A stretch of 53,028 nucleotides of DNA. It comes from a virus (Duplodnaviria > Caudoviricetes). The notes under the pieces were generated by a model, which saw only the letters and a program-made list of their open reading frames with translations, searched no databases and had not been told where the DNA came from. Below, in pieces: positions 1,962 through 44,980 of the stretch (position 1 is its first letter; each line of letters opens with the position of its first letter). The stretch spans positions 1-53,028 of IMG/VR virus record IMGVR_UViG_3300030380_002089; one strand, given 5' to 3'. The position numbers and the translations under genes are program-made.

Positions 1962-2144
1962 ATGAGTATGTTAGAATTTTTATTCCCAAGAATGATTGGG
2001 TTATTTATACTGGGATTTATATTTGGATTTGTTTGGATATGGTTTACTTTCATAGCCGATGAAGACCCCGGTATGGTTATTTTTGAAGACGAGACTGAAC
2101 TGCAAGAAATGTGCATGAATGGCCTTCGGAGAGTGAAGGAATGA
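1962..2144 (+). CDS. Small single-pass membrane protein
   Basis: Start re-assigned to ATG 1962 (TTTAATTT box at 1932-1939). Hydrophobic IGLFILGFIFGFVWIWFTFI; the stop overlaps the next ATG (ATGA). Confidence 0.7.
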   Translation: MSMLEFLFPRMIGLFILGFIFGFVWIWFTFIADEDPGMVIFEDETELQEMCMNGLRRVKE

Positions 2145-2962
2145 ATGTAACCGTCTATGAGGTCGGTCCTCGTGACGGTTTGCAGTATTTAGAACACATA
2201 GTAAGTGTAGATGATAAACGACAACTGATACAGGCTCTTTACGATGCTGGCATAGAACATATCGAAGAAGTAAGTTTTGCTCATCCTAAGCGTTTACCTC
2301 AGATGGCTGATGCTGAACAAGTCTTTACTGGCAGGGGTGCTGGGTTAGTTATGAATAAAAAAGGCTTTGACAGGGCCTGTTCTATAGAAACTAAGAAGAT
2401 AAATATAGTGTTTAGTCCATGTGAAACTTTCAATATTAATAACATGGGTAAGACTCGCTCGGAGATAGTTTTGATGTACAAGACATTTATGGACAAGGTG
2501 CCTAAAGAAAATGTAAGAGTTTACATTAGCATGGCCTTTGGAAGTCGTCATAGTGGTGTAGTAAGTCCAAGTCTAATGCGTCTTTGCATTCGAGATGCTA
2601 AGATGTTTGGCGACACTGTGGTATTCTCTGACACTAATGGGGCGGGCACTAGAAAAGAAGTTGCTCTTTGGGCACAGATGGCTATAGAAGAAGGCATGAA
2701 GCCAGCACTACATTTACATCATAGAGGCGATGAATCGAGAGCAGTGTCCTTACTTAACGGTATAAAGGAGTTCGACAGTAGTATACAGGGTTTGGGCGGT
2801 TGTCCTTTTACAGAAGACGGTGGTGCTAACTTAAGCACAGAGACACTGGTTAGGCATCTAAACGCATGGGGATTTGATTGTGGCACTACCGAGGACAACT
2901 TGAAAGAAGCATCTAGGCTTGCTTATCAAATATCTAATCCTACCGTGACGCTTTTATCATAG
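2141..2962 (+). CDS. hmgL: Hydroxymethylglutaryl-CoA lyase-like enzyme (DRE-TIM metallolyase), putative auxiliary metabolic gene
   Basis: EVGPRDGLQ N-terminal motif, metal-binding HxH (HLHH), and FDSSIQGLGGCPF...NLSTE C-terminal signature. Start at ATG 2141. Confidence 0.85.
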   Translation: MNVTVYEVGPRDGLQYLEHIVSVDDKRQLIQALYDAGIEHIEEVSFAHPKRLPQMADAEQVFTGRGAGLVMNKKGFDRACSIETKKINIVFSPCETFNINNMGKTRSEIVLMYKTFMDKVPKENVRVYISMAFGSRHSGVVSPSLMRLCIRDAKMFGDTVVFSDTNGAGTRKEVALWAQMAIEEGMKPALHLHHRGDESRAVSLLNGIKEFDSSIQGLGGCPFTEDGGANLSTETLVRHLNAWGFDCGTTEDNLKEASRLAYQISNPTVTLLS

Positions 2963-6585: not shown

Positions 6586-7232
6586 TGGCAGAGTGGTGGA
6601 ATCTTTTAAAGAAACAAAAGGACCCTGATTTGACCTTGCCTAGAGGTAAAGAAGTGGTTCTTCAAGCCGAAGACAAAGATTACGAAAGAGGTTTACTTGT
6701 TAAGTTGTTGAAGAACGGTGGTTATGAAATGGCTTATTGGTATGATAAACATAAACCATATCCAATAGAAGTATTAGTTGATGGTAAATCAATCAAAAAA
6801 GATGCTAAAAAAGTTACCATGAAATTCCATCCTCAGTTGAAAAAGGCTATGGAAAATACCGAACAAGTGATTTTAAATGAAATAGAAAAAGAAGGTGGTG
6901 CTTTAGGTATGAAAAACCTTAGAAAAGTTGTACCTGATGAAGAAGAATTGAAATCTACATTGGATAATATGATTAACCAAGGTAAAGTATTTGTTCACGA
7001 AGATGGTGACATATATACCCACGAACCTGATAATAGAATGGAGAAGTCTTGTGACTGTAGTCATTGTGTCGGTAGTTTTGCTGCTATGGACTTTTTAGAA
7101 AAAAAATTGTGTCCAGCGGGTAAAGCAGCAGCCAAGCGTAAGTTCAAAGTTTATCCATCAGCGTATGCAAATGGTTGGGCAGTGCAATACTGCAAAGGTA
7201 AATTCCGTGGTAAAAAGAAGGGGAAGAAATGA
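6585..7232 (+). CDS. Multi-module protein with a degenerate tag and a basic C-terminal KFKVYPSAYAN module
   Basis: ATG 6585 overlaps the previous TAA. Starts MAEWWNLLKK; the central part is wHTH-like (ALGMKNLRK...GKVFVHEDG). Confidence 0.75.
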   Translation: MAEWWNLLKKQKDPDLTLPRGKEVVLQAEDKDYERGLLVKLLKNGGYEMAYWYDKHKPYPIEVLVDGKSIKKDAKKVTMKFHPQLKKAMENTEQVILNEIEKEGGALGMKNLRKVVPDEEELKSTLDNMINQGKVFVHEDGDIYTHEPDNRMEKSCDCSHCVGSFAAMDFLEKKLCPAGKAAAKRKFKVYPSAYANGWAVQYCKGKFRGKKKGKK

Positions 7233-7786
7233 GCATATGTACTTGCCATGATGTTCTTATCGTCAAGAACCTAAACAGGTGGTTTAAAGAGAAATGGGTC
7301 GATGTTTCTCGTAAAGACAAAGATGGTAAGCATCCCCCATGCGGTAGGTCAAAGGCTAAGAAAGGAAGTAAGGGTTATCCAAAGTGTCGACCAAGTGTGA
7401 AGGTATCAAGTAAAACTCCAAAGACTTCTGGTTCAATGTCCGAAGGACAAAAGCGAGCAGCGACTAAGCGTAAGCGAAGTAAAAAACAAGGAGTTGGTGG
7501 TAAGCCAACTATTGTTAAGTCACCAATGGACCTCGCTTTTCAGTTGTTGAAAGACGCAGTAAGTCCAGAGGCTAAGCGTCACAAGTTAGAGTATGATAAA
7601 AAATATGAGTCTAGTCCTGAGCGTGTAAAGTATCGTGAGGAATTAAATCGTGAGCGTAGAAAAAGGGGCATTTACGGTCATGGAGGGCCTGATATGAGCC
7701 ATACTAAGGACCATACGCTGGTTGCAGAAAGTCCACATGCGAACAGGGCTAGGCACTTTAAAGAGCGTGGTACACTTAAAGGATAA
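7229..7786 (+). CDS. Basic two-module protein with an internal tag; C-terminal module is HNH-like
   Basis: LNRWFKEKWVDV...CGRS...YPKCRP module, then SPMDLAFQLLKD, then a DMSH...ANRARH module. Confidence 0.7.
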   Translation: MSICTCHDVLIVKNLNRWFKEKWVDVSRKDKDGKHPPCGRSKAKKGSKGYPKCRPSVKVSSKTPKTSGSMSEGQKRAATKRKRSKKQGVGGKPTIVKSPMDLAFQLLKDAVSPEAKRHKLEYDKKYESSPERVKYREELNRERRKRGIYGHGGPDMSHTKDHTLVAESPHANRARHFKERGTLKG

Positions 7787-7817: not shown

Positions 7818-8024
7818 GTGGATGAGTTTTGGGACACACTATTTCAACACATGTTAGCAGTGGCTTTTGAAAATGTCATGCGTATGGAAGAAAAGGTTAG
7901 CGAATACGACTCGCCAGAAGCCCTTTGTCTTTTAGTAGAGGCTGCGGATAACTATCAGTTCTTGCGACAGGCTTATCACGATAAATGCGCTGGGGATATA
8001 CATGTCGAGTTCAAGCCCTATTGA
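7818..8024 (+). CDS. Small hypothetical protein
   Basis: 68-aa ORF that fills the gap between genes in the + operon. Confidence 0.5.
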   Translation: MDEFWDTLFQHMLAVAFENVMRMEEKVSEYDSPEALCLLVEAADNYQFLRQAYHDKCAGDIHVEFKPY

Positions 8025-9084
8025 TTCGGCATGGTCGTTATTACAAAACGACGACAAGATTGAGAAGGTTCTTCCACTTATTCCCTTAGCAATCGGTGCA
8101 GGTTTTGGTGCTGCTGGTGCTTTTAGTGGCGCTGGTGGTAGATTCATTAATCCAGAAACTGGTGAAGTTGACCCCGGATTTTATGCAGACCCTAAGTATC
8201 AAGACCCTTTGACTGGTGGACTTATTGCTGAGGGAGAGGTTGGTGATACTCCTTTTAGTACAGGTAATACTAACCAAGACAGGTTTTTGGGCGGTGCTGT
8301 AGGTGCACTTCAAGCATTCAATCCTATAGGTATGGCGGGCAGAGCGCTTAAACCTGCTTCAAGAGGGGCTAAAGCACTTCGGGCTGGTAAATCCAAACCT
8401 ACTATCACTCAAGTTTCACCGGGTGTAACCGATACCACCTTTTCTAGGAGGCAAGTTCTTAATAATGCTGTTAGAGAAAGAGCAGCAAGAGGACTAGAAG
8501 GTGCAGGTAGATTAGGACAAAAGGGCCTAAATGTAGCAGGTAGAGGTGCACAATTTGCAGGTTTTGCTCAAGAACAAGGTCTCGGTGACTTAGCAGCAGG
8601 TCTTGCTGGTGGTTATGCTATGGGCCAATTACCACAACCTGCTACAGGTTTTGCATCACAAATGGGGTCAGCAGGTGCTGCCCCGTCACAACAAACTCCA
8701 GTCAGCGGAAACGCAGACCCGTATGCTTTGAGGGAAATATATAACCCACAGGCGGGTAGTGCGTTTGAAACTCAACAAGAGTTTGGCGGGCTTGGATTAC
8801 AGAAAGGTGATAATATGTTTAAACAAAACATTGGAGAAGAATTGTTGAATGAAGTGGCTTATAGACTTCATAAAGCACATTGTATGACGGAACAAAAAGC
8901 AGACTGTCCAAAAGGCTGCAAAGGTTGTCCTAATTGTGATGGTGACGATAAGAAGAAAGCCGATAGCAAAAAGAAACCTGCTCATGGCATGGTTATTGTT
9001 ATCGGTTCAAAAGCCGGTCCGGGTCCATCTACTGATGGCAAAAGAGACAAACTCGACTCTGATAAGGACAAGAAAGAAGAGTGA
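8002..9084 (+). CDS. Gly/Ala-rich protein with a degenerate tag and a C-terminal Cys-rich segment
   Basis: Starts MSSSSPIDSAWSLLQ. Hydrophobic LIPLAIGAGFGAAGAF; CPKGCKGCPNC near the C-terminus. Confidence 0.75.
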   Translation: MSSSSPIDSAWSLLQNDDKIEKVLPLIPLAIGAGFGAAGAFSGAGGRFINPETGEVDPGFYADPKYQDPLTGGLIAEGEVGDTPFSTGNTNQDRFLGGAVGALQAFNPIGMAGRALKPASRGAKALRAGKSKPTITQVSPGVTDTTFSRRQVLNNAVRERAARGLEGAGRLGQKGLNVAGRGAQFAGFAQEQGLGDLAAGLAGGYAMGQLPQPATGFASQMGSAGAAPSQQTPVSGNADPYALREIYNPQAGSAFETQQEFGGLGLQKGDNMFKQNIGEELLNEVAYRLHKAHCMTEQKADCPKGCKGCPNCDGDDKKKADSKKKPAHGMVIVIGSKAGPGPSTDGKRDKLDSDKDKKEE

Positions 9085-9098
9085 TTACGCCTTCGGAT

Positions 9099-9145
9099 AG
9101 TTCGGGTCGGAGGGGGCAATCCCTCTCGCAATCTCCGACCCAACT
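9099..9145. promoter_or_regulatory. GC-rich stem-loop with an anti-RBS segment (terminator, translational switch or sRNA)
   Basis: GGGTCGGAG (9104-9112) pairs with CTCCGACCC (9133-9141). The loop segment CCCTCTCGC (9121-9129) is the exact complement of GCGAGAGGG (9208-9216), the SD region of the 9223 gene. Confidence 0.55.
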
Positions 9146-9222
9146 CAATTTAGTTATACTTAAACTAATATGGTAGCCTTTTATTTAGGGTAAAGTCTTG
9201 GATTGGAGCGAGAGGGGCTAAT

Positions 9223-9789
9223 GTGCAAGCAGGTATAGAATCTAATCGTGAACACGACCAAGCAGAAATAAGATTGATGGGACTGATACTTACACAGGCA
9301 GTTTCAATAGGAATTGCAGTGGGTATTTTTGACGCTGAACTATGGATTGATTTAGACGACCCTACAGTAAATGGAGTGACATATGCTATGGCTGCATTTG
9401 CTGTTCAAGGTTTGGCTTATTATTTATTCAAAATGTTCTTTCAACAAGGTATGGATGAGAGAGCAAGAATGGCCTCTCAAGAAAGGGAGCGTCGAAATAG
9501 ATACAGGTCTATGGAATTTACATTCGATAGGCGCAGACAAGACATGGAAATGCGTATGCAAGAAGCGCAGTTAGAGGCTGAACTCAAATGGATGGAAGAA
9601 AACCCCGGCCAAACTCCTCCTTGGATAGAAGCAAGGATGTATGGGGACAGTTTGGGTACTGCTGATTTTGTTCCAGAAGTTACAAAGACTACTAATCCTT
9701 TGACATTAGGTGTCGATTTTACAGAAGAAAAGCAAAAAAAGTCTGGCAAGATTAGAGGGGCAGATGGTAAATTTAAGAAAAAGGAGTGA
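9223..9789 (+). CDS. Membrane protein with two TM helices and a coiled coil
   Basis: Hydrophobic LMGLILTQAVSIGIAVGIF and VTYAMAAFAVQGLAYYLFKMFF, followed by a charged helical region. GTG start with GAGGGG SD. Confidence 0.75.
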   Translation: MQAGIESNREHDQAEIRLMGLILTQAVSIGIAVGIFDAELWIDLDDPTVNGVTYAMAAFAVQGLAYYLFKMFFQQGMDERARMASQERERRNRYRSMEFTFDRRRQDMEMRMQEAQLEAELKWMEENPGQTPPWIEARMYGDSLGTADFVPEVTKTTNPLTLGVDFTEEKQKKSGKIRGADGKFKKKE

Positions 9790-9795
9790 TAACTC

Positions 9796-10044
9796 TTGGG
9801 CCGCATCTTCAAAACTCCTAGCGATGATGCTGTGGAAGAAACTTTGAGGAGCATGCATATAGCAAATACAGTAGATGTTGCTTATGAAAGAGGCATGGGT
9901 TGGGTTAAAGTAGTGTTATTTTCTACAATAACTGCTTTTACTATCAGTGCTTTTGAATATTATAGTGATTGGAATCTGTGGCAATCTACTGGTAACTGGT
10001 TGAAAGAGTGGTTACAAAATCGAGCAGATTCTATATTCGATTAG
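9796..10044 (+). CDS. Small single-pass membrane protein
   Basis: Hydrophobic WVKVVLFSTITAFTISAF. GGAGTGA SD and TTG start. Confidence 0.7.
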   Translation: MGRIFKTPSDDAVEETLRSMHIANTVDVAYERGMGWVKVVLFSTITAFTISAFEYYSDWNLWQSTGNWLKEWLQNRADSIFD

Positions 10045-10052
10045 GTGAAGTT

Positions 10053-10772
10053 ATGTCAGCATTAGGTGGTTCTGCTCTCGTCGGAGGAGTGGTATTTGCT
10101 AAGGAATTGTGGCATTATTGGAAACCTAGGAGAGTTGGAGTCTATGGACCTACTATGGTTGGTAAGACTACATTAGACCGCTATATGACTACACCGGGTG
10201 AAATGGAAGAAATACCGATTAGTGAAAGGACAAAGCATTTCAAAGTACCGGGAATTAATAGATTTCTCTTACCTCGACCAAGCAGAAAACGAGTCACCTA
10301 CAAGGGTGATACTAGAGTAGTTTATTCTTCTGATATAGGAGGAGAGGAAAGGTTTTGGAATTTATGGTTAGATGATTTAGTTAATCGCCAAGTAGAGGCA
10401 GTAGTTTTTTTAATAGACCACCGTAGTAGCAAGGGCGGTGATGAAGCAGTGCAAGCGGTTGGTGGTTTCAAATACTTAGTCGACGCTATACTTCACAGGC
10501 AGTATCGTTATCGTAATCTAAGGTCTTGGTGGCGTGGTAAAAAATATTCACCTAAATTAATTATGTTAGTTGCTAATAAAGCCGACCAATGGTGGGATGA
10601 ACAGGCGAATATACTTTGGCAACAACAAAGATTGGGAGAGCATAAGATATTTGACCCATTTAGAGAAGATTTGGTTAGGCTTCAAAAAGCAGGTGTACCT
10701 ACTAAAAGAGGTATGATGGCTACTAAAATAGGATGGAATGTAGAAAATACAATGTTAGATTTACTTACTTAG
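10053..10772 (+). CDS. Ras-superfamily (Arf/Rab-like) small GTPase
   Basis: G1 GPTMVGKTT, G3 DIGGEERFWNLW, G4 VANKAD, G5-like MATKIG, and a hydrophobic N-terminal segment. Start at ATG 10053 after AGGTGA. Confidence 0.85.
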   Translation: MSALGGSALVGGVVFAKELWHYWKPRRVGVYGPTMVGKTTLDRYMTTPGEMEEIPISERTKHFKVPGINRFLLPRPSRKRVTYKGDTRVVYSSDIGGEERFWNLWLDDLVNRQVEAVVFLIDHRSSKGGDEAVQAVGGFKYLVDAILHRQYRYRNLRSWWRGKKYSPKLIMLVANKADQWWDEQANILWQQQRLGEHKIFDPFREDLVRLQKAGVPTKRGMMATKIGWNVENTMLDLLT

Positions 10773-10780
10773 GTGATAAA

Positions 10781-11806
10781 ATGAATAATTGGGGATTTGG
10801 AGGATATGGAAGAGTGCCACAAGGCGATGCGAACTTAGCAAACATGAGTCAGGCTCACTTGATAGCCTTAAGTCAGCAGGGTAATGCTAGTCACGAACAA
10901 TTACTTGAAATACAGGCTGCTCAGCAAGGTATGAAACAGGTTGCTGAGAAGCAAAATATAGAAGTCCCAAAGGTCAATTTTTATCCAAGTAGGCATCCTG
11001 ACCCAAGAAAGGCAAGAAAGCAAGACATTAAACAGGCTCGTAAATTACTTACTCCTACCAAAAGAAGCCTACTTAATCCTTTGAGATGGATTTGGGGTAT
11101 GAAATATAGATACAATCGTCAAAGTAACTTATGCGTTATTGACGGTTGTGATTGTGAAGAACTGATTAAGTATGACAATCTTTATGCAAAAATAACAGAT
11201 GAAGAATCTGGACAGAGCCTTTGGGACCTTTATTGGAGAAACCCCGTAACGCAAACACCAGAGCCATTTGTTGCTAGAGAAAATGTAACTGATGGTCGAA
11301 AAATGAAAGGTACTTACTGCCCTGAGCATTTACATCTTTATCATTTACTTTGTAAATGGGAATTGGAAGCCGATAAAGACCACAATAAAACAAAGACTGG
11401 TATGAAAGAAATGGTTAAGAAAGGAGTTTCTACAATCGCAGTGCCAATATCTATAGTTAAGAAGAAAGACAATACCCCTGAATTTTTGAAAAAGTATGAG
11501 CCTTTCTTTATGGAACTTGAAAAAGACTCCAAGACACAATCTGGAATAAACTTAATTCATTATAAAAATCCAGAAACAGGGATTAATGATATTACTGCTA
11601 TATATTTTGATTTGAGATTGTTTCAAAAAGAAATATTAGCGACTAATCCACAACTTAGTGACGCTATTTCTAACTTAGGGATTACACAAAATCTTACTCC
11701 AAGCGCTGGAGGCTCGCTTGGAATGGCTATGAATAGTACGACCAATGGTGTTATCAATCAAAACACCTTGGAGCAAACAGAACAGATGAGCCTTCCTCAA
11801 CAATAG
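10781..11806 (+). CDS. Hypothetical protein with a probable Zn-binding site
   Basis: CVIDGCDC ... YCPEH. Start at ATG 10781 after AGGTGA. Confidence 0.75.
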   Translation: MNNWGFGGYGRVPQGDANLANMSQAHLIALSQQGNASHEQLLEIQAAQQGMKQVAEKQNIEVPKVNFYPSRHPDPRKARKQDIKQARKLLTPTKRSLLNPLRWIWGMKYRYNRQSNLCVIDGCDCEELIKYDNLYAKITDEESGQSLWDLYWRNPVTQTPEPFVARENVTDGRKMKGTYCPEHLHLYHLLCKWELEADKDHNKTKTGMKEMVKKGVSTIAVPISIVKKKDNTPEFLKKYEPFFMELEKDSKTQSGINLIHYKNPETGINDITAIYFDLRLFQKEILATNPQLSDAISNLGITQNLTPSAGGSLGMAMNSTTNGVINQNTLEQTEQMSLPQQ

Positions 11807-11814
11807 GTGATACA

Positions 11815-12456
11815 ATGGGAATATTTGGAAACAATCAACAACAGAATACTGGAACTTTGAATTTAGGCGTAGGTCAGCCCGGTCAAATGCCTGTTCAAAG
11901 CCAAAATCCTTTTGCTCCTCAGAACGGAATGATGCAACAAATGAGTCAAAATCCTTTCATGGCAGGTATGGTAGGTGGCACAGGCATGCAACAAGGTATG
12001 ATGGGTCAACCTATGGTACCTCCAAGCGAAACTGATATACTATTGGCTTTGATGAAAAGCCTAGCCCCTGCTGACCGATTTATTGTCGGTGCTCAAATGC
12101 AAACTCTTTTACAATTACTTAATGATTTAGTTAGTTTTTCAGTGCTAGAGATATTAAAGAACGCTAAATTTACAATAGATGAAGAAGATAGCACTATGCA
12201 AATGGATGTAACTAGTTTACCTCAAAATCTTCAAACAATGAGTGGTGAAAATGTGGCTAATCAATTCAATGCGCTAAAAATGTCAAGTCAGCAAAATATA
12301 CAAAACGCTGAAATGCAACAGCAGCAAATAGCAGCGATGGCTCAACAATCTATGATGGGGGGTGCCTTGAGTGCCGCTTTACAAGATGAAGGTTTTATGA
12401 ATAAAGCGGGTACTGCTGCCGGTAGTTTCATGGGCAGAATGATGGGGATGAGATAA
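11815..12456 (+). CDS. Q/M/G-rich hypothetical protein
   Basis: AGGTGA SD. Low-complexity ends flank a helical core. Confidence 0.75.
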   Translation: MGIFGNNQQQNTGTLNLGVGQPGQMPVQSQNPFAPQNGMMQQMSQNPFMAGMVGGTGMQQGMMGQPMVPPSETDILLALMKSLAPADRFIVGAQMQTLLQLLNDLVSFSVLEILKNAKFTIDEEDSTMQMDVTSLPQNLQTMSGENVANQFNALKMSSQQNIQNAEMQQQQIAAMAQQSMMGGALSAALQDEGFMNKAGTAAGSFMGRMMGMR

Positions 12457-12698
12457 TGATAGAAAATAATCCAATGATAGGTTTTTCTTCGACAGCAATG
12501 GGAATATTTGCACCAGTAAAAAGAGTCATAGTCGATATGGTAATGGTTCAACTATTAGCAATCATAGTTACATTAGGGTTGATACTAGTTACAGGTGCCG
12601 ATAATTTGAGTAGTGATACTATGGCATATCTTGTAGCAGGTTTATTCGCTGCTTTCTTTATGCTCGGCGGAATCTACAGTAGAATATCGAGTATCTAG
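12456..12698 (+). CDS. Small two-TM membrane protein
   Basis: VIVDMVMVQLLAIIVTLGLILVTG and MAYLVAGLFAAFFMLGGIY; translationally coupled (TAATG). Confidence 0.75.
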   Translation: MIENNPMIGFSSTAMGIFAPVKRVIVDMVMVQLLAIIVTLGLILVTGADNLSSDTMAYLVAGLFAAFFMLGGIYSRISSI

Positions 12699-12965
12699 TT
12701 CTACATGCCTACCCCACTTTTTCAACGGACATTCGCTTGAACTTAGGCTCGTTTTGACTCTCATCTGACATCCGCATTCTGTGCATCTGTTACTAGTATG
12801 CTCCCAACTAGGACAAACCATACATATGTCCATTCTTATTTGCTTTACATCTTTTGGTACATATCTTCTCATAAATATGTCTCTTCCGGCTCTCGTTAGA
12901 CTTTTTGCTGTCTCTATAGAAACAGGAACTCCCATGATTTTAGGCTTAATTCTTGGCAGTTTCAT
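12642..12965 (-). CDS. Cys-rich protein (CxxC...CxxCGC...CPxxKW; DUF6171-like from memory)
   Basis: RMDICMVCP...RCTECGCQMRVK...ECPLKKW. Start re-assigned to ATG 12965, with a TTTTGAA box about 29 nt upstream on the minus strand. The only credible minus-strand gene. Confidence 0.75.
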   Translation of the reverse strand: MKLPRIKPKIMGVPVSIETAKSLTRAGRDIFMRRYVPKDVKQIRMDICMVCPSWEHTSNRCTECGCQMRVKTSLSSSECPLKKWGRHVELDTRYSTVDSAEHKESSE

Positions 12966-13025
12966 ATAACTATGCTGGCACTTCTTGTTCAAAAGGGTTA
13001 TCCGTGTTAATGACATGGGCTGCAC

Positions 13026-13721
13026 ATGGCGGGTGAGCGACAGACTAAGCGCTCATGTCCTTTCTGTCAACACGAAGATAGAGATACCCTAGAACAAAAC
13101 ATCATTGACGGTATCTCTGAGCCTAAGATTTTAGACAAAGATATGGGTTGGAGAGCCAACACTGCTGAGCGACATATGAAAAATCACGCAGGTGAATATC
13201 ACAAAGGTGCAAATCATTCCTGTGTAGTTTGCACGAGTGACGATAGAAGCGCTTTGGAAGTTGCATACTTTGAAGGTGACCGTACCAGTGAAGACATTGC
13301 TACTGAACTAGACTGTAGTGAAGAATTAGTTTACAGACACATGAAACATCACTTTCAACCACTCGTTAAGCGTGGTGCAACCGCTATCGTTTCCGTCAAA
13401 GTAGGGCAAGAAGTAGATATTTTGAGAGGGAATGTAGAAAGTCTCAACGGTAAGTTGGCTCAGTTTATGACAGAAACTAGTATACACGATGATGGGGTAA
13501 TATCTGATATGGTTAAATTACATAAAGAGGTCAGAGAAACTCTCAAAGATTTATCAGCGTATCAGGAAAAATGGGCAGAGCCTACTCAAAATATTGCCAA
13601 CAATACTATCAATGTGCTTAAACTGGAGTTGAGCAAGGAGAGTCCTGATACTTGGAAGCGTATCAAAAAGAATTTACTTGACTCTGATAATGTTGAACAA
13701 GATATAATGGATTTACTGTGA
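13026..13721 (+). CDS. Tandem CxxC...RHxxxH zinc-finger/HTH protein; candidate terminase small subunit
   Basis: Two repeats (CPFCQH..RHMKNH and CVVCTS..RHMKHH) plus a C-terminal coiled coil. It heads the operon leading to the large terminase. Confidence 0.5.
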   Translation: MAGERQTKRSCPFCQHEDRDTLEQNIIDGISEPKILDKDMGWRANTAERHMKNHAGEYHKGANHSCVVCTSDDRSALEVAYFEGDRTSEDIATELDCSEELVYRHMKHHFQPLVKRGATAIVSVKVGQEVDILRGNVESLNGKLAQFMTETSIHDDGVISDMVKLHKEVRETLKDLSAYQEKWAEPTQNIANNTINVLKLELSKESPDTWKRIKKNLLDSDNVEQDIMDLL

Positions 13722-13731
13722 GGAGATATAC

Positions 13732-14853
13732 ATGCCAATGATTACAGGTTCTGACACAAGGATGTACAATCCTAGAAGTGAATCTATGCTTGGTTATTCT
13801 AAAGACGATGATTATCGTTACGGAATAGGTGACCCTAAATCGATGGAAGAGTATCGTGATAAAAAGCAGTCTGAAAAAGAAGCCGAACCTAAATCAGATG
13901 ATTTACCACACTTGCAGATAGAAGTTCCAAAACCTACTCCAAAGATGCCTCCAGTGATGCCGGAAGAAGAGGAGCCTGAAATGAGCGACCAATTTAATGA
14001 AGGTCAGCAGTTCGGTGCTATGACAGGAATGCCTGACATGGGTAATTTGAGTATAGGGAATGCTACAGGAACTATGCCTCAGCCCGGTGGTACACTAATG
14101 ACTGGTGAACCAATGGAAGATGCTTGGTCTACTTTGATGAAAAGTCGACTTGACAAAGTAAAGGGTGCCAAAGACCAATCTTGGAAACAACCTCAATACG
14201 AAACTCAACCGGGCGGGGCAGATATTACAACTGCCAATACTCGTCGTGCTAAATTACAATCAAGATATGTTCAACCAAGTAAGAAAAGAGGGCTTGACAG
14301 AGCACCTTTGAGCGTACATCGTTCTCACTTGGGTATCGCTACTAAGCAACCTTTGAGGCTATTTCCTCAAAAATACGGCCAACAAATGGGAAGTATGGCT
14401 CGCCGTAAGTTGATGGGCAACATCCCAACAGCGCCAGCAGGTCACGCAATGGGTCCTGAGACTACATATTCACCAAAGTCTCCTAAAGTGGCATCTGGTG
14501 CTGGGCTTCCTTTGAAAGAACCAAGAGCACCTATGATGAGAGGACAGGCTCTCGCTAAATCAGAACTTGAATTAATTAAGCAAGACCTTGAAGAGTTGAA
14601 GAAAAAAGATGATTACATGCGTTTTGCTCAGATAAGAAGACTTCTAAGACAACTGAAAGATGTTGCTGAGAGACAAGAGCGTAGGCTAAAAGCGAGTGCT
14701 GGACCCGGAGAAGTAAAAGAATCGGGGCATAGAGAGGGACAAGATAGCACTACTCGACCAGAGGGTGCTACAGAAGACATGGAGAATGACCCCAAGAATT
14801 GGGGTGCTCCTTCTACTATATTTGCAGCGAGAGGTAGCGGGAGGGTCGGCTGA
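13732..14853 (+). CDS. Hypothetical P/K-rich protein with an internal tag
   Basis: Internal GEPMEDAWSTLMKS at about 14104-14145. GAGGAG SD. Confidence 0.75.
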   Translation: MPMITGSDTRMYNPRSESMLGYSKDDDYRYGIGDPKSMEEYRDKKQSEKEAEPKSDDLPHLQIEVPKPTPKMPPVMPEEEEPEMSDQFNEGQQFGAMTGMPDMGNLSIGNATGTMPQPGGTLMTGEPMEDAWSTLMKSRLDKVKGAKDQSWKQPQYETQPGGADITTANTRRAKLQSRYVQPSKKRGLDRAPLSVHRSHLGIATKQPLRLFPQKYGQQMGSMARRKLMGNIPTAPAGHAMGPETTYSPKSPKVASGAGLPLKEPRAPMMRGQALAKSELELIKQDLEELKKKDDYMRFAQIRRLLRQLKDVAERQERRLKASAGPGEVKESGHREGQDSTTRPEGATEDMENDPKNWGAPSTIFAARGSGRVG

Positions 14854-23799: not shown

Positions 23800-26700
23800 A
23801 TGAGAGAAGGTCACCTAGACATTTTTGATAGGAACAAAACTATTTTTATTCAGTCACTCCATGACAATATAGGTAAAGCAGATGCTGGCGCTGATTATTA
23901 TTTCAGCGCTATTAACTTACAAAGACATGGCTACATACTTAGTCCTCAAGATGAAAGTCTTTTGAAGATGGTAGATTCTATTATCAAGCAAGATGAATTT
24001 GCAGATTCTCTTCAAGGTACTGCTTTAGGAGAAGGTTATGGTCTATTACCTGACCCTAGTTATGATACTTCGAGAGTTCAAAGACCACAGCCCGGTCAAC
24101 CGTTTACGGGTGCTAATATACAATTAAACCCCGGTGACCCTAATACAGATTCTCACCACGATATAGATTATTTTAACTCACATATGTTTCCTTTGTATGG
24201 TAAGATGGGAAATGTAATCTCTGACTTTTACTTACCTCAAGAAGCGGGCTTAGATAGCCAAAGTAAAATAGACGCTGGTAAAGAAAATCATTTTGATAAC
24301 AAGCATACCGTTGACGACTATAGTGATTATACTTCTAGTAAGCATTTGTTAAATCACGCACATTATCATAATCTTGACGCTGACATGACTAATCACGATA
24401 TTTACGACAGAAATTATAGAAATTGGCATTCTAGCAATGATGCTAAGGTAAGTCAGATTACTGCAAATATGCATGAGCAGGGTATATATGATGAGGCTAT
24501 AATCGACCATGAATTAAGAAAGTTGCATATGGATGAGGCTAAGCAAGGTTGGAATAAAAATCTAACATTTACTGATTACCTGTTAGGCTTAGAATGGCTA
24601 AATCCTGAACAAAGAAATCAGGCTTATGATTATCTTAGTAAAAATGGAATAAGTCAAAAGCATAACGGATTAAAATTAGAAGGTGGGAGTGATTGGAGAG
24701 GTAGACTAGTCCGTAATTTTCATCAAAGATTTGCTCCCGTTTACAATCATTGGATAGGTAAACCACAAAAGCCCGGATTTGGAGTAGCAGCGCAACGCAA
24801 AGAACTTCCCGCAAAAGCAAGAGAACCGGGCATCGAAGAAAATTTAGGAGCATTTTCTGCTGTTAAGGATGGCTATCAAAGAGCAATCGATTATTGGAAA
24901 AGTAAAACGGGAAGTAAAGCAAGCACTGCCGGACAATATCCTAGTTTGTATACTAGTCTTGAGGGAGTGCGTACATTACAGTTTAACCCATTGAGGGGTG
25001 GAATCAGGTCTGAAAATATTAACAATTTAAGGCCGGGTGATGTACCGGGTATGGAGTTCAAAACCATGCAAGTTATGTTGGGTATAGATAATAATAACAG
25101 ATTACACCAAGCAGGTCAGCATCCCCTCTATGGAGATGATTGGCATCCAGATGAAAGTCCATTTACTCAAGAAGAAATAGATAAAATCTTAAACAAAAGA
25201 TATGAGTTGACAAAGGAAATATATACTGGAAGAGTAAGTAAAAATGAAGCAGGGGTTCATTATAATACATTTCAAGATAAAGATTCGCATGACTCTGAAT
25301 ATACAGAAGGGGGACAATCTCACGATACTTTATCGACTCATTGGCAGAGACCATTTTTTGGAAAAGGTGGTTTAAGTAAACACCCTAACCTTTTGTTTGA
25401 TAAACTTCACAATGCTACAATACTGTATGGTAAAAATCACTTTGGTGCAAAACAACCAGAAAAGGATATTGTCGAAAGCGATGATATATATCAAGATATA
25501 GACTTTGAACAATTAAGGGGTGCTGATAATTTAGAAGGAGAATTTAGTAATGACCCTTACCACGATAAGTTCCATCCAGAAAATGTAACTACTGACGGAA
25601 AAGGTCACGAACACAGTCTTTGGTTTAAGAAAGATTCTGCGGGGAATAGAATTATGCCAAGGACTGATGAATTTGCTGATGATTCAGATGATAGAGATTT
25701 TTTACAATTCAGTATGAAATCTTTTTTAGCACCGTTTGCATCAAGACCTACTGAGTTGATAGAAGGCCAACATGAAACATTTATCGATAGAGGAGGCCCT
25801 CTCAATTCCATCAATAATTTATCACCATCTCAAGCCAACAGAGTTAAATTAGGACTTGCCTCTCAAGGTAATACACATGTGGAAAGACACGCTGAAACAG
25901 TAGCACCTGCTTATTCCAACCAATTAACCAGAGAACACGAAGACTTAACTTTTGACAGAGAAAGCAAAGATGCTGAAAAAATTAGAAACGCTTTGGCTGG
26001 AAGAATAAGTGGTGGGTTAGAAACTTATAATCGATTTTCTCATAAAGGTGGAATACACGACCCTAGAGAACAGTTGAAAGTAGCAGGGCGTGATGCTTAT
26101 TCTATAGCGCATGATTTACATTTACATGGTCCACCCGGCTCTCCAATTGACATAGGTGGTCCTAAAGGTCAACATCCTTTGGCTAGTGGAGAAAAGGGAT
26201 TCTTACCACTTACCTTACCATTAGATTCTCAAGATGGTATGGTCGATACACCAATGTCTAGGAATCTAAGGGCTAAACATGCACAGGAAAGTGAAGCCTT
26301 AGAAAATGTTATTGATGAATTAGAACAGAAGTTATCAGTAGCGTTACCTAATGAAAAAGAGGCTTTAGAGGATTTGATAAATGCAAATGAAGAAAGGTTA
26401 GCAGAACTTGATGAAAAGATGGAGAGAGGTTACGCACAGGTAGAAGCCAAGCCTTATGATGGAAATGCACCATTGTGGCTTCAATCTAGGGGTGAAAAGT
26501 TAGCGTCAGATGATAATGCACTTGCTCAAGCAGCGGCTATGTGGGCACCTCAGTTTCCTCAGTTGTTTGATAGAAGTTTACCACCCGATGTATTAGATGG
26601 TAATACAAGACAATTTGCTCGCATGATGAATGACTTTTTACACACTGCTCCTCACGAAGTGCATGGTATTCATACTCTTTCTCCTAACCAAGGTGTTAAC

Positions 26701-42948: not shown

Positions 42949-44979
42949 ATGGCTTTACCAATCAGACTTTTGCTTGCTAATGGCAAGGATGAGATAGACT
43001 TGGTAGCGCAGAGCATAGATATGTCGGTCAATAGGAATGTTAGCGCTTTCCCTACGCCTAATAATGCTTTGAAAAGATTCGCAGTTGATACAAATGTACC
43101 TGCAATAAAGGTTGATATTAACGGTATATTTGCAGACGATGAAGGAGTAAATACAGATAGTACAGTAAATCTTGACTCAAATCCCATGAGGAGTGCGATA
43201 AACTTTGGGGGATTGTTACCTACTAAGCGTAATGATTTTACATCCGCAAGATATGTTAGTGGTTCAGGAACTGGAGATATTTTAGTTACTACCTGTACTA
43301 CAGCAGGTGTTTATTCCGATGATTTTTATTCAGAATCTACCTTTTTCAAAAATCAAACTAACACTTTAAACTTAGTAGGTGCAGTAGGGACAATATATGA
43401 AGAGGCTAGTGAAGATACAGAAGAAATAAATGTAAAGCCATTTACTAATTTCAAATCAGCGAGTAATTTTTCCGGCGTTAATCAAATAACCGTCTCTTAT
43501 GTTCCAACATTTTTAACTAAAACGGCAGAAGATTTAATAGAAGTAGGTGAAAGATTAGTAAAAGAAGATGGTTCTTTACTTGGTATCGTAAGTTCTGTTT
43601 CTAGCAACACTATTAATTTTGTAAGTAATATAGCAACCAGTCTATCTACCAATGACCGAATACATATTTCGCTAAGAGTATTTAACCACATTGGGGAAGA
43701 AATTGGCTTTGCAGACTACTTAGTTGACGACCCATCAATAGAAGACGATGATGGGCAGACTGCTAAATTTACATTAGGACTGACTGATACTAACAGTGCT
43801 GAAATAAAATCGGGTCAACTAATTACTATAAATAGACAATCACCAATTATTGGGAGATTTAGAAACCAAACTATAAAATTAATACCGAGTTATTGGTTGG
43901 AAAATACTGCTCGTCGAAATTTAACTAGAGATAGTTCTATGGAAAACAACCTTAATGCTAATGGCTCCACTAATTCTGGTGGCACAGGTAATATACCTAG
44001 GGTAGGGGTAAGACTACATTTTGATTTAAACAATCCGTACACTAATGCCCCCTCTTTAAAAAGAACAGGATTAATTGCTCCTTCTACTCCTAATTTACCT
44101 GCATTTGGCGATGCTGCTAATTATGATGCAGTTATCAATGTCCCAATTCAGGATATAGACACCGCTGATAACCCTGCTTTAGAAATGGCTAAACAAGTAG
44201 AAAAGGCATTTGGAGGAACTGAAAGTCCACCAATAACTGGTAATATAATAAGTGCAACAGGCGCTATAGGATTTAATCCGGCGGGCGACAGAACTTTAGC
44301 GTCTGCATTTAGAGTAATTAGAACAGGTACAGTTGTGACAATCGAGCAAGTATACAACCCTGCCATAGAAACTCTGCATCCACAAATACTTAGTCCAGAT
44401 TTGTTAGATTTGTTTGGCTCTGTTGAGTTTCATAGCAGTAACACTACGCCTACCCAATCAAGAAAATCAGCAGGTGATAAAGCACAGGATTTGATTGGTT
44501 TGGTTTCAAACGCTAATAGAAATTCAGATTTGCTCAGAGGTGTACAGATACCATATGATAGTCTAGTGACTAGCACAGGTGTGACAGGTATAGCAAGAAA
44601 CTTCTTTTTGACATTTGGTGAAGTCGATACCACTAAAAAGTTGTCAACTAACAATAACCGTTCTGCAAGCCAAAGCATGTCAGACTTGCTACTAGGCATG
44701 GATGAAGGAGGGGCTAGTAGTGACGATAGTCCTGATAAATGGTATGAAAAAATTCTCAAGGCAATAACGCCTGATGAGATTGAATCTATATTTGGTTTCT
44801 TAGTAGGTGCTGCAAAAGATGCTCTTTGGATAACTCTTAGCCAGCGTGGTAAAGTATCAGAAAATGATGGCGGAATTAGAATTATTCCAGAAAAACTTCA
44901 TGTGCGTTATGATGCTGGCAACAACTACTACGCTTTCAACTTAGAGTTAATGGTTTCAGATTATGTAATGGGTGTTTGA
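42949..44979 (+). CDS. Tail-tip protein, paralog of 40372..42939
   Basis: Shared PIRL N-terminus and KSAGDKAQDL...RGVQIPY...RNFFLT C-terminal block. Confidence 0.65.
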   Translation: MALPIRLLLANGKDEIDLVAQSIDMSVNRNVSAFPTPNNALKRFAVDTNVPAIKVDINGIFADDEGVNTDSTVNLDSNPMRSAINFGGLLPTKRNDFTSARYVSGSGTGDILVTTCTTAGVYSDDFYSESTFFKNQTNTLNLVGAVGTIYEEASEDTEEINVKPFTNFKSASNFSGVNQITVSYVPTFLTKTAEDLIEVGERLVKEDGSLLGIVSSVSSNTINFVSNIATSLSTNDRIHISLRVFNHIGEEIGFADYLVDDPSIEDDDGQTAKFTLGLTDTNSAEIKSGQLITINRQSPIIGRFRNQTIKLIPSYWLENTARRNLTRDSSMENNLNANGSTNSGGTGNIPRVGVRLHFDLNNPYTNAPSLKRTGLIAPSTPNLPAFGDAANYDAVINVPIQDIDTADNPALEMAKQVEKAFGGTESPPITGNIISATGAIGFNPAGDRTLASAFRVIRTGTVVTIEQVYNPAIETLHPQILSPDLLDLFGSVEFHSSNTTPTQSRKSAGDKAQDLIGLVSNANRNSDLLRGVQIPYDSLVTSTGVTGIARNFFLTFGEVDTTKKLSTNNNRSASQSMSDLLLGMDEGGASSDDSPDKWYEKILKAITPDEIESIFGFLVGAAKDALWITLSQRGKVSENDGGIRIIPEKLHVRYDAGNNYYAFNLELMVSDYVMGV

Positions 44980-44980
44980 T

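What the first reader, a model, noticed from the sequence alone, without database searches (positions are those of the whole stretch)
9223..12698. Arf/Rab-like small GTPase embedded in a six-gene membrane module
Seen: a 2-TM coiled-coil protein, a 1-TM protein, a GTPase with intact G1/G3/G4 and a hydrophobic N-terminus, a Zn-binding protein, a Q/M-rich protein and a 2-TM protein. They are tightly packed and none carries the tag. DIGGE..F..LW is close to the Arf DxGGQ...LW switch II. Established: Arf/Sar-type GTPases drive membrane remodelling, and small GTPases are unusual in tailed viruses. No holin/endolysin pair is recognisable in the window. Inference: an undescribed GTPase-controlled membrane-remodelling system for egress/lysis, vesicle formation or superinfection exclusion.
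Basis: partly seen in the sequence, partly recalled or inferred. Interest (0 to 1): 0.82.

Follow-up and report, generated by a model that had tools for sequence, protein, structure and literature searches.

The report
Arf-like GTPase membrane operon in magroviruses
A very abundant group of marine archaeal tailed viruses carries a strictly conserved six-gene operon, made of a divergent Arf-like small GTPase, three small membrane proteins and two unknown soluble proteins, which is a plausible but unproven candidate for how these viruses act on the host membrane.

Summary
Window 9223-12698 holds six tightly packed + strand genes (gaps 6, 8, 8, 8 and -1 nt): A (2 TM plus a charged helix), B (one hydrophobic segment), C (239-aa small GTPase), D (Cys/His-rich), E (Q/M-rich) and F (2 TM). 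The window is a magrovirus-type archaeal tailed virus. All six genes keep the same order in 79-80 of 80 related viral loci, and most of them in 17 loci of two distant clades. G1, G3 and G4 are invariant in 81 of 81 GTPases, and dN is far below a saturated dS. The fold is Ras-like. The nearest families by sequence profile are Arf-type (Asgard Arf 8OUN, Arl8/Arl10), but the protein fails Pfam Arf and three Arf hallmarks. It is therefore a separate, virus-restricted family: only 85 hits among 1.84 billion representatives. Function is inferred, not shown. I read it as a GTP-switched, membrane-acting module, most likely for egress, a step whose players are unknown for archaeal tailed viruses. No paper I could search mentions it. 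Complex prediction gave no verdict, no RNA data were found, and supplements were closed.

The parts
9104..9141 (+). Stem-loop (GGGTCGGAG ... CTCCGACCC) in the 138-nt gap before gene A. It is a likely terminator or regulatory hairpin. Its loop holds CCCTCTC, which can pair with the AGAGGG at A's ribosome-binding site.
   Evidence: Sequence read. Fold of 9085-9222: -45.5 kcal/mol, z -2.42. The stem differs between loci with both sides changed (L001, L008 and L009; seen by eye, not counted). The CCCTCT...AGAGGG pair occurs in that order in 28 of 76 loci; these loci are related, so they are not independent.
9149..9164 (+). AT-rich box TTTAGTTATACTTAAA, a possible archaeal TATA-like promoter of the operon.
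   Evidence: Read. Near-identical in many related loci. Promoter function is inferred. The sigma-70 scan found no more sites than shuffles give.
9223..9789 (+). Gene A: a 188-aa membrane protein with two hydrophobic helices (18-36 and about 51-73), then a long charged helix-like stretch and a basic tail (DGKFKKKE).
   Evidence: Present in 79 of 80 loci and 16 of 17 distant loci. By the positive-inside rule both ends would be cytoplasmic (inference).
9796..10044 (+). Gene B: an 82-aa protein with one central hydrophobic segment and a Trp-rich C-terminus.
   Evidence: Present in 79 of 80 loci. Its HMM hits 0 of 17 distant loci, but a 72-79-aa ORF sits at the same place in the 3 distant loci I inspected.
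10053..10772 (+). Gene C: a 239-aa divergent Ras-superfamily small GTPase with Arf-like traits and a roughly 25-residue hydrophobic-amphipathic N-terminal helix.
10781..11806 (+). Gene D: a 341-aa soluble protein of no known family. It has conserved Cys/His residues (C118, C180, H183, H185, H188) and Q-rich ends.
   Evidence: 786 clusters, no Pfam, no informative name. In the distant clade its start overlaps the GTPase stop.
11815..12456 (+). Gene E: a 213-aa protein with Q/M/G-rich ends and a conserved helical middle. It starts MG(I/L)FGN.
   Evidence: Present in 80 of 80 loci and 13 of 17 distant loci by HMM. A Q/M-rich ORF holds the same place in the two loci of the other clade that I inspected (L085, L088).
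12456..12698 (+). Gene F: an 80-aa protein with two strong transmembrane helices and short ends. Its start overlaps E's stop by 1 nt.
   Evidence: Present in 80 of 80 loci and 12 of 17 distant loci.
13026..13721 (+). Gene G: a 231-aa protein with two CxxC motifs and weak HTH-type hits. It always follows the module and may be a DNA-binding or packaging protein rather than part of the module.
   Evidence: Present in 80 of 80 loci and 12 of 17 distant loci. Only sub-threshold Pfam and PHROG hits.

Best explanation
The six genes are one operon of a magrovirus, a marine archaeal tailed virus. The operon encodes a GTP-switched machine that works at the host cytoplasmic membrane.

Shown:
- The genes are real, under purifying selection and packed like an operon.
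- They stay together in the same order across deep divergence of the virus group.
- C is a small GTPase with an intact nucleotide-binding site and a hydrophobic-amphipathic N-terminal helix.
- A, B and F are small membrane proteins.

Inferred mechanism:
1. In the GTP form, C releases its N-terminal helix and docks on the membrane, as Arf, Sar1 and ArvA are held to do.
2. There it meets the cytoplasmic charged helix of A and the small hairpins B and F.
3. The residue at the catalytic-Gln position varies (E, Q, D, H), so hydrolysis probably needs a partner. The always-adjacent Cys/His protein D is the best candidate regulator or effector.
4. The output is a timed deformation or permeabilisation of the membrane that lets virions out. 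A and F would be the membrane-breaking parts and the GTPase the timer.

My odds are about 0.75 that this is a membrane-associated GTPase module and about 0.35 that its job is egress or lysis.
For: Virus identity:
- The MCP hits only archaeal tailed viruses (11 of 11 records), at 32% identity to HVTV-1. This matches Philosof 2017.
- A ligase-like domain lies inside the structural block (compared).
- PolB is present in 4 of 4 complete 100-115 kb relatives, and a chaperonin in 4 of 4.

Operon:
- Gaps are 6, 8, 8, 8 and -1 nt.
- GGTGAT-type ribosome-binding sites lie 5-8 nt before B to E.
- A hairpin and an AT-rich box precede A.

Co-conservation:
- C, D, E and F are in 80 of 80 loci and A and B in 79 of 80, in the same order. 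The one miss is a contig end.
- Among 17 distant loci (GTPase about 30-40% identical), C and D are in 17 of 17, A in 16, E in 13 and F in 12.
- Position-equivalent B-like and E-like ORFs were seen by eye.
- 3 of 3 genome-collection hits carry A to G.

Selection: dN is 0.05-0.26 against dS above 1.

GTPase:
- The motifs are invariant in 81 of 81.
- The fold is Ras-like, with 480 PDB matches at E <= 0.001.
- The A5 profile gives Asgard Arf 8oun_A at 9.8e-6 and Arl10C/Arl8A at 6-8e-4, ahead of Rab33B at 6e-3 and KRas at 0.016.
- The nearest named cellular Atlas clusters all carry Pfam Arf (a lead only).
- The N-terminal helix has muH >= 0.236 in 80 of 80.

Membrane partners.

Context from papers:
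- An Arf-like GTPase, ArvA, with two operon partners drives vesicle budding in Euryarchaeota (passages of PMC10927574).
- The egress players of archaeal tailed viruses are called 'completely uncharacterized' (passages of PMC10791045).
Against: - No experiment or expression data bear on function.
- No family library (Pfam, PHROGs, NCBIfam, PADLOC) names A, B, D, E or F.
- F lacks the charged C-terminal tail typical of holins, and no lytic enzyme is recognised nearby.
- The narrow family profile (A1) hits no GTPase in the PDB at E <= 1, and none of about 40 small GTPases of an Asgard genome at E <= 10. The Arf link therefore rests on distant family members and short stretches.
- The AF2 model is only moderate (pLDDT 68) and is below 50 in the P-loop and switch regions.
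- In the most distant clade F and G were not found, so the six-gene set is not universal.
- The position just upstream of the packaging and head genes fits a morphogenesis role equally well.
- Synteny in related viruses partly reflects shared descent, not only functional linkage.
Confidence: 0.4

Rival explanations
1. Morphogenesis or packaging accessory. The GTPase and its partners help head assembly or DNA packaging, for example by anchoring assembly to the membrane or acting as an assembly chaperone or checkpoint. They do not remodel the membrane for release.
For: The block lies directly upstream of the always-linked DNA-binding-like gene G and, 5 kb on, TerL and portal, all on one strand. 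G is in 80 of 80 loci and TerL in 78 of 80, in the same order. The interswitch insert carries an invariant basic RKR patch that could bind nucleic acid as well as lipid (inference).
Against: Three of the six products are small integral membrane proteins, which tailed-virus head or packaging modules do not usually need (general knowledge). No PHROG family of structural or packaging proteins matches any of the six. The nearest cultured relatives by MCP (haloarchaeal siphoviruses) have no detectable GTPase homologue.
Confidence: 0.17
2. Vesicle or compartment building, or membrane-protein targeting. The Arf/SR-beta-like GTPase buds vesicles, builds a replication or assembly compartment, or helps insert viral membrane proteins. 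It does not lyse the cell.
For: ArvA drives vesicle budding in Euryarchaeota with two operon partners, one of them a Zn-ribbon protein. 3 of the 15 proteins in alignment A2 weakly match Pfam SRPRB (best 5.9e-6, for P0205, itself a Pfam Arf-family protein outside the viral family). An N-terminal membrane helix is present.
Against: D, E and F do not match DUF2073 or DUF2072 at E <= 0.1. Nothing suggests a coat. Philosof 2017 reports that magrovirus reads lie mostly in the free-virion fraction, which says nothing either way about vesicles.
Confidence: 0.15
3. Superinfection exclusion or host takeover at the membrane. The module blocks entry of competing viruses or rewires host transport or signalling.
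For: It combines small membrane proteins with a switch protein and is conserved in a very abundant virus group where co-infection is likely (inference). The lack of hits in any library does not exclude this.
Against: PADLOC shows no defence-system match for any of the six. The SLATT_4 hint for A is noise: 1 of 25 members. Exclusion genes are usually variable, whereas this block is among the best-conserved parts of the genome. GTPase identity of 63-93% is similar to TerL's 57-92% (69-92% in 77 of its 78 hits).
Confidence: 0.1
4. Not one system. The six genes are simply neighbouring core genes of the virus family with unrelated roles, kept in order by descent.
For: All compared loci belong to one virus lineage, so conserved order is partly phylogenetic inertia. 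Neighbouring genes G and H are as conserved (80 of 80 and 79 of 80).
Against: Spacing is translational-coupling type, with overlapping stop and start codons, also in the distant clade. A to E are retained in clades where the GTPase has fallen to 30-40% identity and the flanks have changed: a thermosome-like gene lies upstream in L085, and other genes lie downstream in L085 and L088.
Confidence: 0.1

Closest known systems
ArvA-ArvB-ArvC (OapABC) vesiculation operon of Haloferax volcanii and other Euryarchaeota/DPANN (PMC10927574; passages read)
   Same: A small Ras-superfamily GTPase with an N-terminal amphipathic helix. It is encoded in an operon with conserved partner genes directly downstream, one of them Cys-rich (Zn-ribbon). 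It acts on the archaeal cytoplasmic membrane.
   Different: ArvB is DUF2073 and ArvC is DUF2072, and D, E and F match neither. The Arv operon is cellular and has no membrane-protein genes in the description I read. Here three TM proteins are part of the block and the genes are viral only. I could not compare with the ArvA sequence directly. Only 85 proteins in 1.84 billion representatives reach the viral profile, so the large ArvA family as a whole is not detected.
Arf family GTPases, including Asgard Arfs (PDB 8OUM/8OUN; PMC11914678) and Arl8/Arl10
   Same: These are the best sequence-profile matches in the PDB. Shared traits are an N-terminal amphipathic helix, Gly at the third position of G3 (69 of 81), the aromatic/Trp pattern after switch II, and the NKxD and G5 Ala.
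   Different: The protein is below Pfam's Arf cut-off. It has no Leu-Asp in G1. It has about 17 extra residues before the interswitch, including an invariant RKR patch, and about 20 extra between G3 and G4. The catalytic Gln is kept in only 22 of 81. The G5 Ser is replaced by Met.
Phage holin / antiholin lysis cassettes (as described in PMC10791045; details of classes recalled)
   Same: Small membrane proteins with one or two TM helices, encoded together beside the late genes. A has the highly charged cytoplasmic C-terminal part expected of a holin.
   Different: No endolysin is recognised (and none is expected for a host without murein; inference). F lacks a charged tail. No known holin cassette I am aware of includes a small GTPase (recalled; no call tests this).
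Small GTPases of giant eukaryotic viruses (Rab/Ras/Ran-like; recalled; only a search listing of PMC10583209 seen)
   Same: A virus-encoded Ras-superfamily switch protein.
   Different: Those are recent captures from eukaryotic hosts and are easily recognised by Pfam. This one is in a tailed virus of archaea, is highly divergent, has no detectable cellular counterpart, and is embedded in a membrane-protein operon.

Membership tests
Ras-like small GTPase superfamily (P-loop, TRAFAC) | G1 GxxxxGK[ST], G3 DxxG, G4 [NT]KxD | tested here: met
   G32, G37, K38, T39, D94, G97, N175, K176 and D178 are each invariant in 81 of 81. G32, G37, K38, D94, G97, N175 and K176 are also invariant across the distant homologues.
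Ras-like small GTPase superfamily (P-loop, TRAFAC) | G5 (S)A motif | tested here: inconclusive
   The Ala is invariant (A223, 81 of 81) but the preceding residue is Met, not Ser. Distant homologues mostly have SA(K/L/R/Q).
Ras-like small GTPase superfamily (P-loop, TRAFAC) | Ras-like fold | tested here: met
   AF2 model pLDDT 68, pTM 0.70. Foldseek against the PDB gives 480 matches at E <= 0.001, and the rows listed are almost all Ras-superfamily small GTPases (Rab, Ras, Rho, Rheb, Rag). TM-scores are only 0.35-0.53 on the query.
Ras-like small GTPase superfamily (P-loop, TRAFAC) | Binds and hydrolyses GTP | not testable with these tools
   Needs biochemistry. The Q61-equivalent residue is E 46, Q 22, D 12, H 1 of 81, which suggests slow or partner-dependent hydrolysis (inference).
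Arf family (Pfam PF00025) | Score over Pfam's gathering cut-off | tested here: not met
   13.1-13.6 bits against 22.3. Of the 15 proteins in alignment A2, 6 hit Arf at E <= 1. Of the 8 distant members scanned separately, only P0205 is over the cut-off (36.2 bits).
Arf family (Pfam PF00025) | N-terminal amphipathic helix | tested here: met
   The best 18-residue window has muH 0.25-0.37 in 80 of 80 scored. 37 of 80 fall within both ranges used for Asgard Arfs, and 43 are more hydrophobic than that range.
Arf family (Pfam PF00025) | Leu and Asp at positions 2 and 3 of G1 (as stated in PMC11914678) | tested here: not met
   Position 2 is P 43, A 29, T 6, S 2, G 1. Position 3 is T 29, S 21, P 14, A 11, G 5, R 1.
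Arf family (Pfam PF00025) | Gly at the third position of G3 (DxGG) | tested here: met
   G in 69 and A in 12 of 81.
Arf family (Pfam PF00025) | Interswitch of typical length | tested here: not met
   In the HMMER alignment to Asgard Arf 8oun_A, query positions 55-82 face chain positions 45-55, an excess of about 17 residues in the viral family.
ArvABC vesiculation system | GTPase followed by a DUF2073 (ArvB) and a DUF2072 Zn-ribbon (ArvC) gene | tested here: not met
   D, E and F have no match to DUF2073 or DUF2072 at E <= 0.1. D and F have no Pfam hit at all, and E has only a sub-threshold Tfb4 hit. The definition comes from passages of PMC10927574.
ArvABC vesiculation system | GTPase is a homologue of ArvA (HVO_3014) | not tested
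Indirectly, only 85 proteins in the 1.84-billion library reach E <= 0.001, while the paper counts 1,666 ArvA homologues.
Holin (for A and F) | [quoted passage not shown] | tested here: inconclusive
   A has 2 TM helices plus a charged C-terminal part. F has 2 TM helices but no charged tail. No endolysin-type Pfam family appears in the 40 ORFs scanned.
SLATT 2-TM effector domain (for A) | Match to a SLATT profile across the family | tested here: not met
   The window's A hits Pfam SLATT_4 at 13.9 bits (cut-off 27) and NCBIfam at 16.2 bits (cut-off 55). Only 1 of 25 family members hits it.
Magroviruses (Philosof 2017, PMC5434244) | MCP about 33% identical to haloarchaeal siphovirus MCPs only; roughly 100-kb genome with PolB and often a chaperonin; a DNA ligase inside the structural module (groups A and B) | tested here: met
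   MCP: 11 of 11 hits are archaeal tailed viruses, at 32% identity to HVTV-1. PolB in 4 of 4 and Cpn60_TCP1 in 4 of 4 complete relatives of 101-116 kb. There is a ligase-domain hit in the 1860-aa ORF between portal and protease, but it is sub-threshold (23 bits against 26.2). Pfam MCM was found in 0 of 4; the paper says most replication proteins need profile-profile searches.

The most novel reading that the evidence does not exclude
Magroviruses, among the most abundant archaeal viruses in the surface ocean, carry their own Arf-like GTPase machine. This GTPase, with dedicated membrane proteins (A, B, F) and a Cys/His regulator (D), times and executes virion release. It would be the first egress system identified for any archaeal tailed virus, and the first GTPase-controlled lysis or budding system in a prokaryotic virus.
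Probability: 0.3. Interest if true: 0.9.

Novelty: new variant of a known kind. Interest (0 to 1): 0.68.

Why it matters
How archaeal tailed viruses leave their cells is an open question. The review I read calls the players 'completely uncharacterized' (PMC10791045). This operon is a concrete, strictly conserved candidate in a virus group reported to rank third in abundance among marine viruses (PMC5434244).

It also shows that Arf-type membrane switches, known from eukaryotes, Asgard archaea and the haloarchaeal ArvA vesicle system, have been taken up and remodelled by viruses of archaea. That bears on the early history of GTPase-driven membrane traffic.

The family is small, isolated and very well conserved, so the proteins are good targets for heterologous expression, liposome assays and structure work even though the host is uncultured.

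Tried and rejected
- SLATT pore-effector reading of A: rejected. Only 1 of 25 family members hits SLATT_4, below the cut-off.
- Defence-system reading: no PADLOC hit for any of nine proteins.
- ArvB/ArvC identity of D, E and F: no Pfam match to either.
- Complex prediction of the GTPase with D (residues 50-295): no verdict, score 0.00 in two runs, controls not run. It counts neither for nor against binding.
- Expression: no RNA holder was listed among 20 runs that hold the stretch or part of it.
- ESM Atlas for D: no usable hit.
- PDB sequence search with the single GTPase, and with the narrow profile A1: no GTPase hit.
- Narrow profile A1 against an Asgard genome with 40 Arf-HMM matches: only the mis-binned viral contig itself was hit. 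The wider profile A5 picked an atypical 216-aa GTPase at 1e-7. Its neighbours (an acidic-repeat protein with a Cys-rich part, metabolic genes) taught nothing.
- Phage GenBank collection: no tblastn match to the GTPase.
- Sigma-70 promoter and terminator scan: no more sites than shuffles give.
- A proper phylogeny with Arf, Rab, Roc and ArvA references was not made. No named reference sequences could be obtained, and the family is too divergent for a trustworthy tree.
- Print search: 'GTPase' has 0 occurrences in the main texts of PMC5434244, PMC11706807, PMC10160649, PMC8651126 and PMC12999244. Library searches gave nothing on a GTPase in archaeal tailed viruses. Supplements were closed, so gene tables such as Table S13 of PMC11706807 may list such an annotation that I could not see. 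One JGI record names a homologue 'GTPase SAR1 family protein' (P0112).

Full report
What is there

With the starts conserved across relatives they are:
- A, 9223-9789
- B, 9796-10044
- C, 10053-10772
- D, 10781-11806
- E, 11815-12456
- F, 12456-12698

The gaps between them are 6, 8, 8, 8 and -1 nt. GGTGAT- or GGAG-type ribosome-binding sites lie 5-8 nt before the starts of B to E.

The 138-nt gap before A holds a stem-loop (9104-9141) and an AT-rich box (9149-9164) that recur in many relatives. After F comes the only minus-strand ORF of the region. The anatomy is therefore that of one operon.

Hydropathy, taken on the window proteins and on family averages of 80-81 orthologues, gives this picture:
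- A has two membrane helices, followed by a stretch with 44% charged residues.
- B has one hydrophobic segment.
- F has two strong helices.
- C and D have none.
- E is 14.6% Q, 12.2% M and 10.3% G.

What virus this is

The window is a tailed virus with all large genes on one strand. Pfam identifies TerL, portal, prohead protease and an HK97-type MCP.

- The MCP matches only archaeal tailed viruses in the GenBank phage collection (11 of 11 records). It is 32% identical to Haloarcula siphoviruses. That is the pattern by which Philosof et al. defined magroviruses.
- A ligase-like domain lies between portal and protease (sub-threshold), as that paper describes for groups A and B.
- Four complete relatives of 101-116 kb that carry the GTPase all encode PolB and a chaperonin.
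- Pfam MCM was found in 0 of 4. The paper says most replication proteins need profile-profile searches.

The host is therefore most likely Poseidoniales (Marine Group II), not a haloarchaeon.

Is the block conserved?

The GTPase has 474 clusters at 90% identity in the 5.8-billion protein set. All 120 listed are about 205-240 aa, come from marine sources and have no Pfam assignment. IMG/VR holds 189 relatives.

In the best 80 loci (GTPase identity 63-93%), tblastn found:
- C, D, E, F and the next gene G in 80 of 80
- A and B in 79 of 80; the miss is a locus cut at its left end
- H in 79 of 80 and TerL in 78 of 80
- always the same order and strand

By contrast, the upstream gene at 8002 was found in only 37 of 80.

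Two deeper clades were reached through distant hits of a library-wide profile search.
- In 13 loci of one clade (GTPase about 40% identical), family HMMs found C and D in 13, A, E and G in 12, and F in 11, in order. The misses are at contig ends.
- In 4 loci of the other clade, A, C and D were found by HMM.
- In the 3 loci I read by eye, a 72-79-aa ORF sits where B should be. In the two from the most distant clade, a Q/M-rich ORF starting MGLFGN (L088) or with similar composition (L085) sits where E should be, and D's start overlaps the GTPase stop.
- F and G were not found in that most distant clade.

The only three hits in 185,579 species genomes are 8-16-kb contigs that carry the whole A to G block. 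They are binned into MAGs of Maricaulis, Parvibaculum and an Asgard archaeon, so they are viral contigs, not cellular homologues. That scan used two peptide patterns only and would miss distant relatives.

For all six genes, and for G, dN against the window is 0.05-0.26 while dS is above 1 or saturated. This includes the small ORFs B and F, so all are real genes under purifying selection. The ratios themselves are rough because dS is saturated.

The GTPase

In 81 sequences, G1 (G32, G37, K38, T39), G3 (D94, G97), NKAD (175-178), F/W101-102, W105 and the G5 Ala are invariant or nearly so.

The AF2 model is moderate: pLDDT 68, pTM 0.70, and below 50 in the P-loop and switch regions. It matches 480 PDB chains at E <= 0.001, and the listed matches are almost all Ras-superfamily small GTPases of several families. 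None of the listed matches is an Arf.

By sequence the family is isolated.
- A profile of 22 members found only 85 proteins at E <= 0.001 among 1.84 billion representatives, mostly fragments of the same family.
- The narrow profile hits no GTPase in the PDB.
- When the distant viral-type members are added, and the two most Arf-like outliers (P0203, P0205) are left out, the best real hits are an Asgard Arf (8oun_A, 9.8e-6) and Arl10C/Arl8A (6-8e-4). These come ahead of EF-Tu, Rab33B (6e-3) and KRas (0.016). The RecA rows are P-loop repeats in fusion constructs.
- 8OUM and 8OUN are Asgard Arf structures.
- P0205, a marginal hit of the viral profile (6.4e-4), is a true Pfam Arf at 36.2 bits.
- The nearest named cellular clusters in the ESM Atlas all carry Pfam Arf on 17-67% of members (a lead only).

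Measured against the Arf hallmarks stated in PMC11914678:
- The N-terminal helix is present: muH is at least 0.236 in 80 of 80, often more hydrophobic than in Arfs.
- DxGG is present in 69 of 81.
- The Leu-Asp of G1 is absent.
- The interswitch is about 17 residues longer and carries an invariant RKR patch.
- The Pfam cut-off is missed.
- The catalytic Gln is E in the window. Across the family it is E 46, Q 22, D 12 and H 1.

My reading is a distinct, virus-restricted family of the Ras superfamily whose nearest kin are Arf-type GTPases. It works like an Arf in outline but is not a member by the usual tests.

The partners

None of A, B, D, E or F matches Pfam, PHROGs, NCBIfam or PADLOC above noise.

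D is as widespread as the GTPase, with 786 clusters, none with Pfam or an informative name. It keeps C118 and C180 (invariant) and H183, H185 and H188 (at least 90%). A metal site is plausible but unproven.

A has the build of a two-helix membrane hairpin with a long charged cytoplasmic arm. F is a bare two-helix hairpin.

How it most likely works

Shown: an operon, co-conserved over deep divergence, that joins a small GTPase with a membrane-seeking N-terminus to three small membrane proteins and two soluble unknowns.

Inferred: the GTP form of C docks on the membrane by its helix, as described for Arf, for Asgard Arfs on liposomes and as proposed for ArvA. There it engages A, B and F. D, always next to C and translationally coupled to it, regulates or reads out the switch, because the catalytic position is not conserved. 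The outcome is a timed change of the membrane.

I favour virion release for three reasons:
- The block lies at the head of the late, structural part of the genome.
- A and F look like the membrane-breaking type of protein.
- No other egress candidate is recognisable in the 40 ORFs scanned.

The review of archaeal virus egress states that tailed archaeal viruses lyse their hosts by an unknown system.

The rivals are an assembly or packaging aid, vesicle or compartment formation in the manner of ArvABC, superinfection exclusion, and no common function. My evidence excludes none of them; they are weighed in their own sections.

Limits

- No expression data were found.
- The one complex prediction gave no verdict.
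- Supplements of the magrovirus papers were closed, so an annotation of this gene in a supplementary table cannot be ruled out.
- In the main texts I searched, 'GTPase' never occurs, and library searches found no paper on such a gene in archaeal tailed viruses.

Verdict

- Observation: confirmed.
- Interpretation: partly supported. The module and its Arf-like, membrane-linked character are real. The family label is too strong, the host guess is wrong, and the function is untested.
- Novelty: a new variant of a known kind, namely an Arf-type membrane switch in a new, viral, membrane-protein-rich setting.
- Interest: 0.68.

Noticed in passing
window 9104-9141 and 9210-9217: The conserved stem-loop before gene A has CCCTCTC in its loop. 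This can pair with the GAGAGGG at A's ribosome-binding site about 90 nt downstream, and the MFE fold does pair them. The ordered pair CCCTCT...AGAGGG is in 28 of 76 related loci, against about 0.04 and 0.09 expected per 260 nt. It could be a terminator, or a switch that masks A's start on read-through transcripts.
   Followed up: partly
window 12642-13025 (- strand): This is the only minus-strand ORF in the region: 127 aa with a CxxC...CxxCGC...CP..KW pattern. It fills the F-G gap and overlaps F's last 57 nt. tblastn finds it in 58 of 80 related loci (29-77% identity). Where it is absent, the F-G gap is about 30-40 nt. It has no Pfam or PADLOC hit.
   Followed up: partly
window 7818-8024, 8002-9084, 13732-14853: Three ORFs share a short D-x-[AF]-W-x-x-L motif (MDEFWDTL, IDSAWSLL, MEDAWSTL). 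None of the six module genes has it. Its role is unknown.
   Followed up: no
window 2111-2962: An HMGL-like (pyruvate carboxyltransferase/HMG-CoA-lyase type TIM barrel) gene scores 54.3 bits in Pfam. It looks like an auxiliary metabolic gene, although Philosof 2017 reported none in magroviruses.
   Followed up: no
window 23800-29382 and 44972-53026: Two giant ORFs. The first is 1860 aa, lies between portal and protease, and has a weak ATP-dependent DNA ligase domain hit at residues 1443-1532. The second is at least 2685 aa, runs off the window end and has no Pfam hit at all.
   Followed up: no
L102, L103, L104 (genome contigs): Magrovirus-type contigs of 8-16 kb carrying the whole A to G block are binned into MAGs labelled Maricaulis, Parvibaculum and Promethearchaeati. 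This is almost certainly mis-binning of viral contigs.
   Followed up: partly
window 13026-13721: Gene G has two CxxC motifs, each followed by a similar helix-turn-helix-like stretch (weak Sigma70_r4, GerE and HTH_20 hits). It follows the module in 80 of 80 loci. It may be a small-terminase-like or regulatory DNA-binding protein.
   Followed up: no
L085 7250-8785: In one distant clade a thermosome-type chaperonin gene lies directly upstream of the A homologue. The module's left neighbour therefore differs between clades while A to E stay together.
   Followed up: no
window 7229-7786: The ORF matches DUF5872 (40.9 bits) and is found in 66 of 80 related loci, but at varying distance and twice on the other strand.
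   Followed up: no
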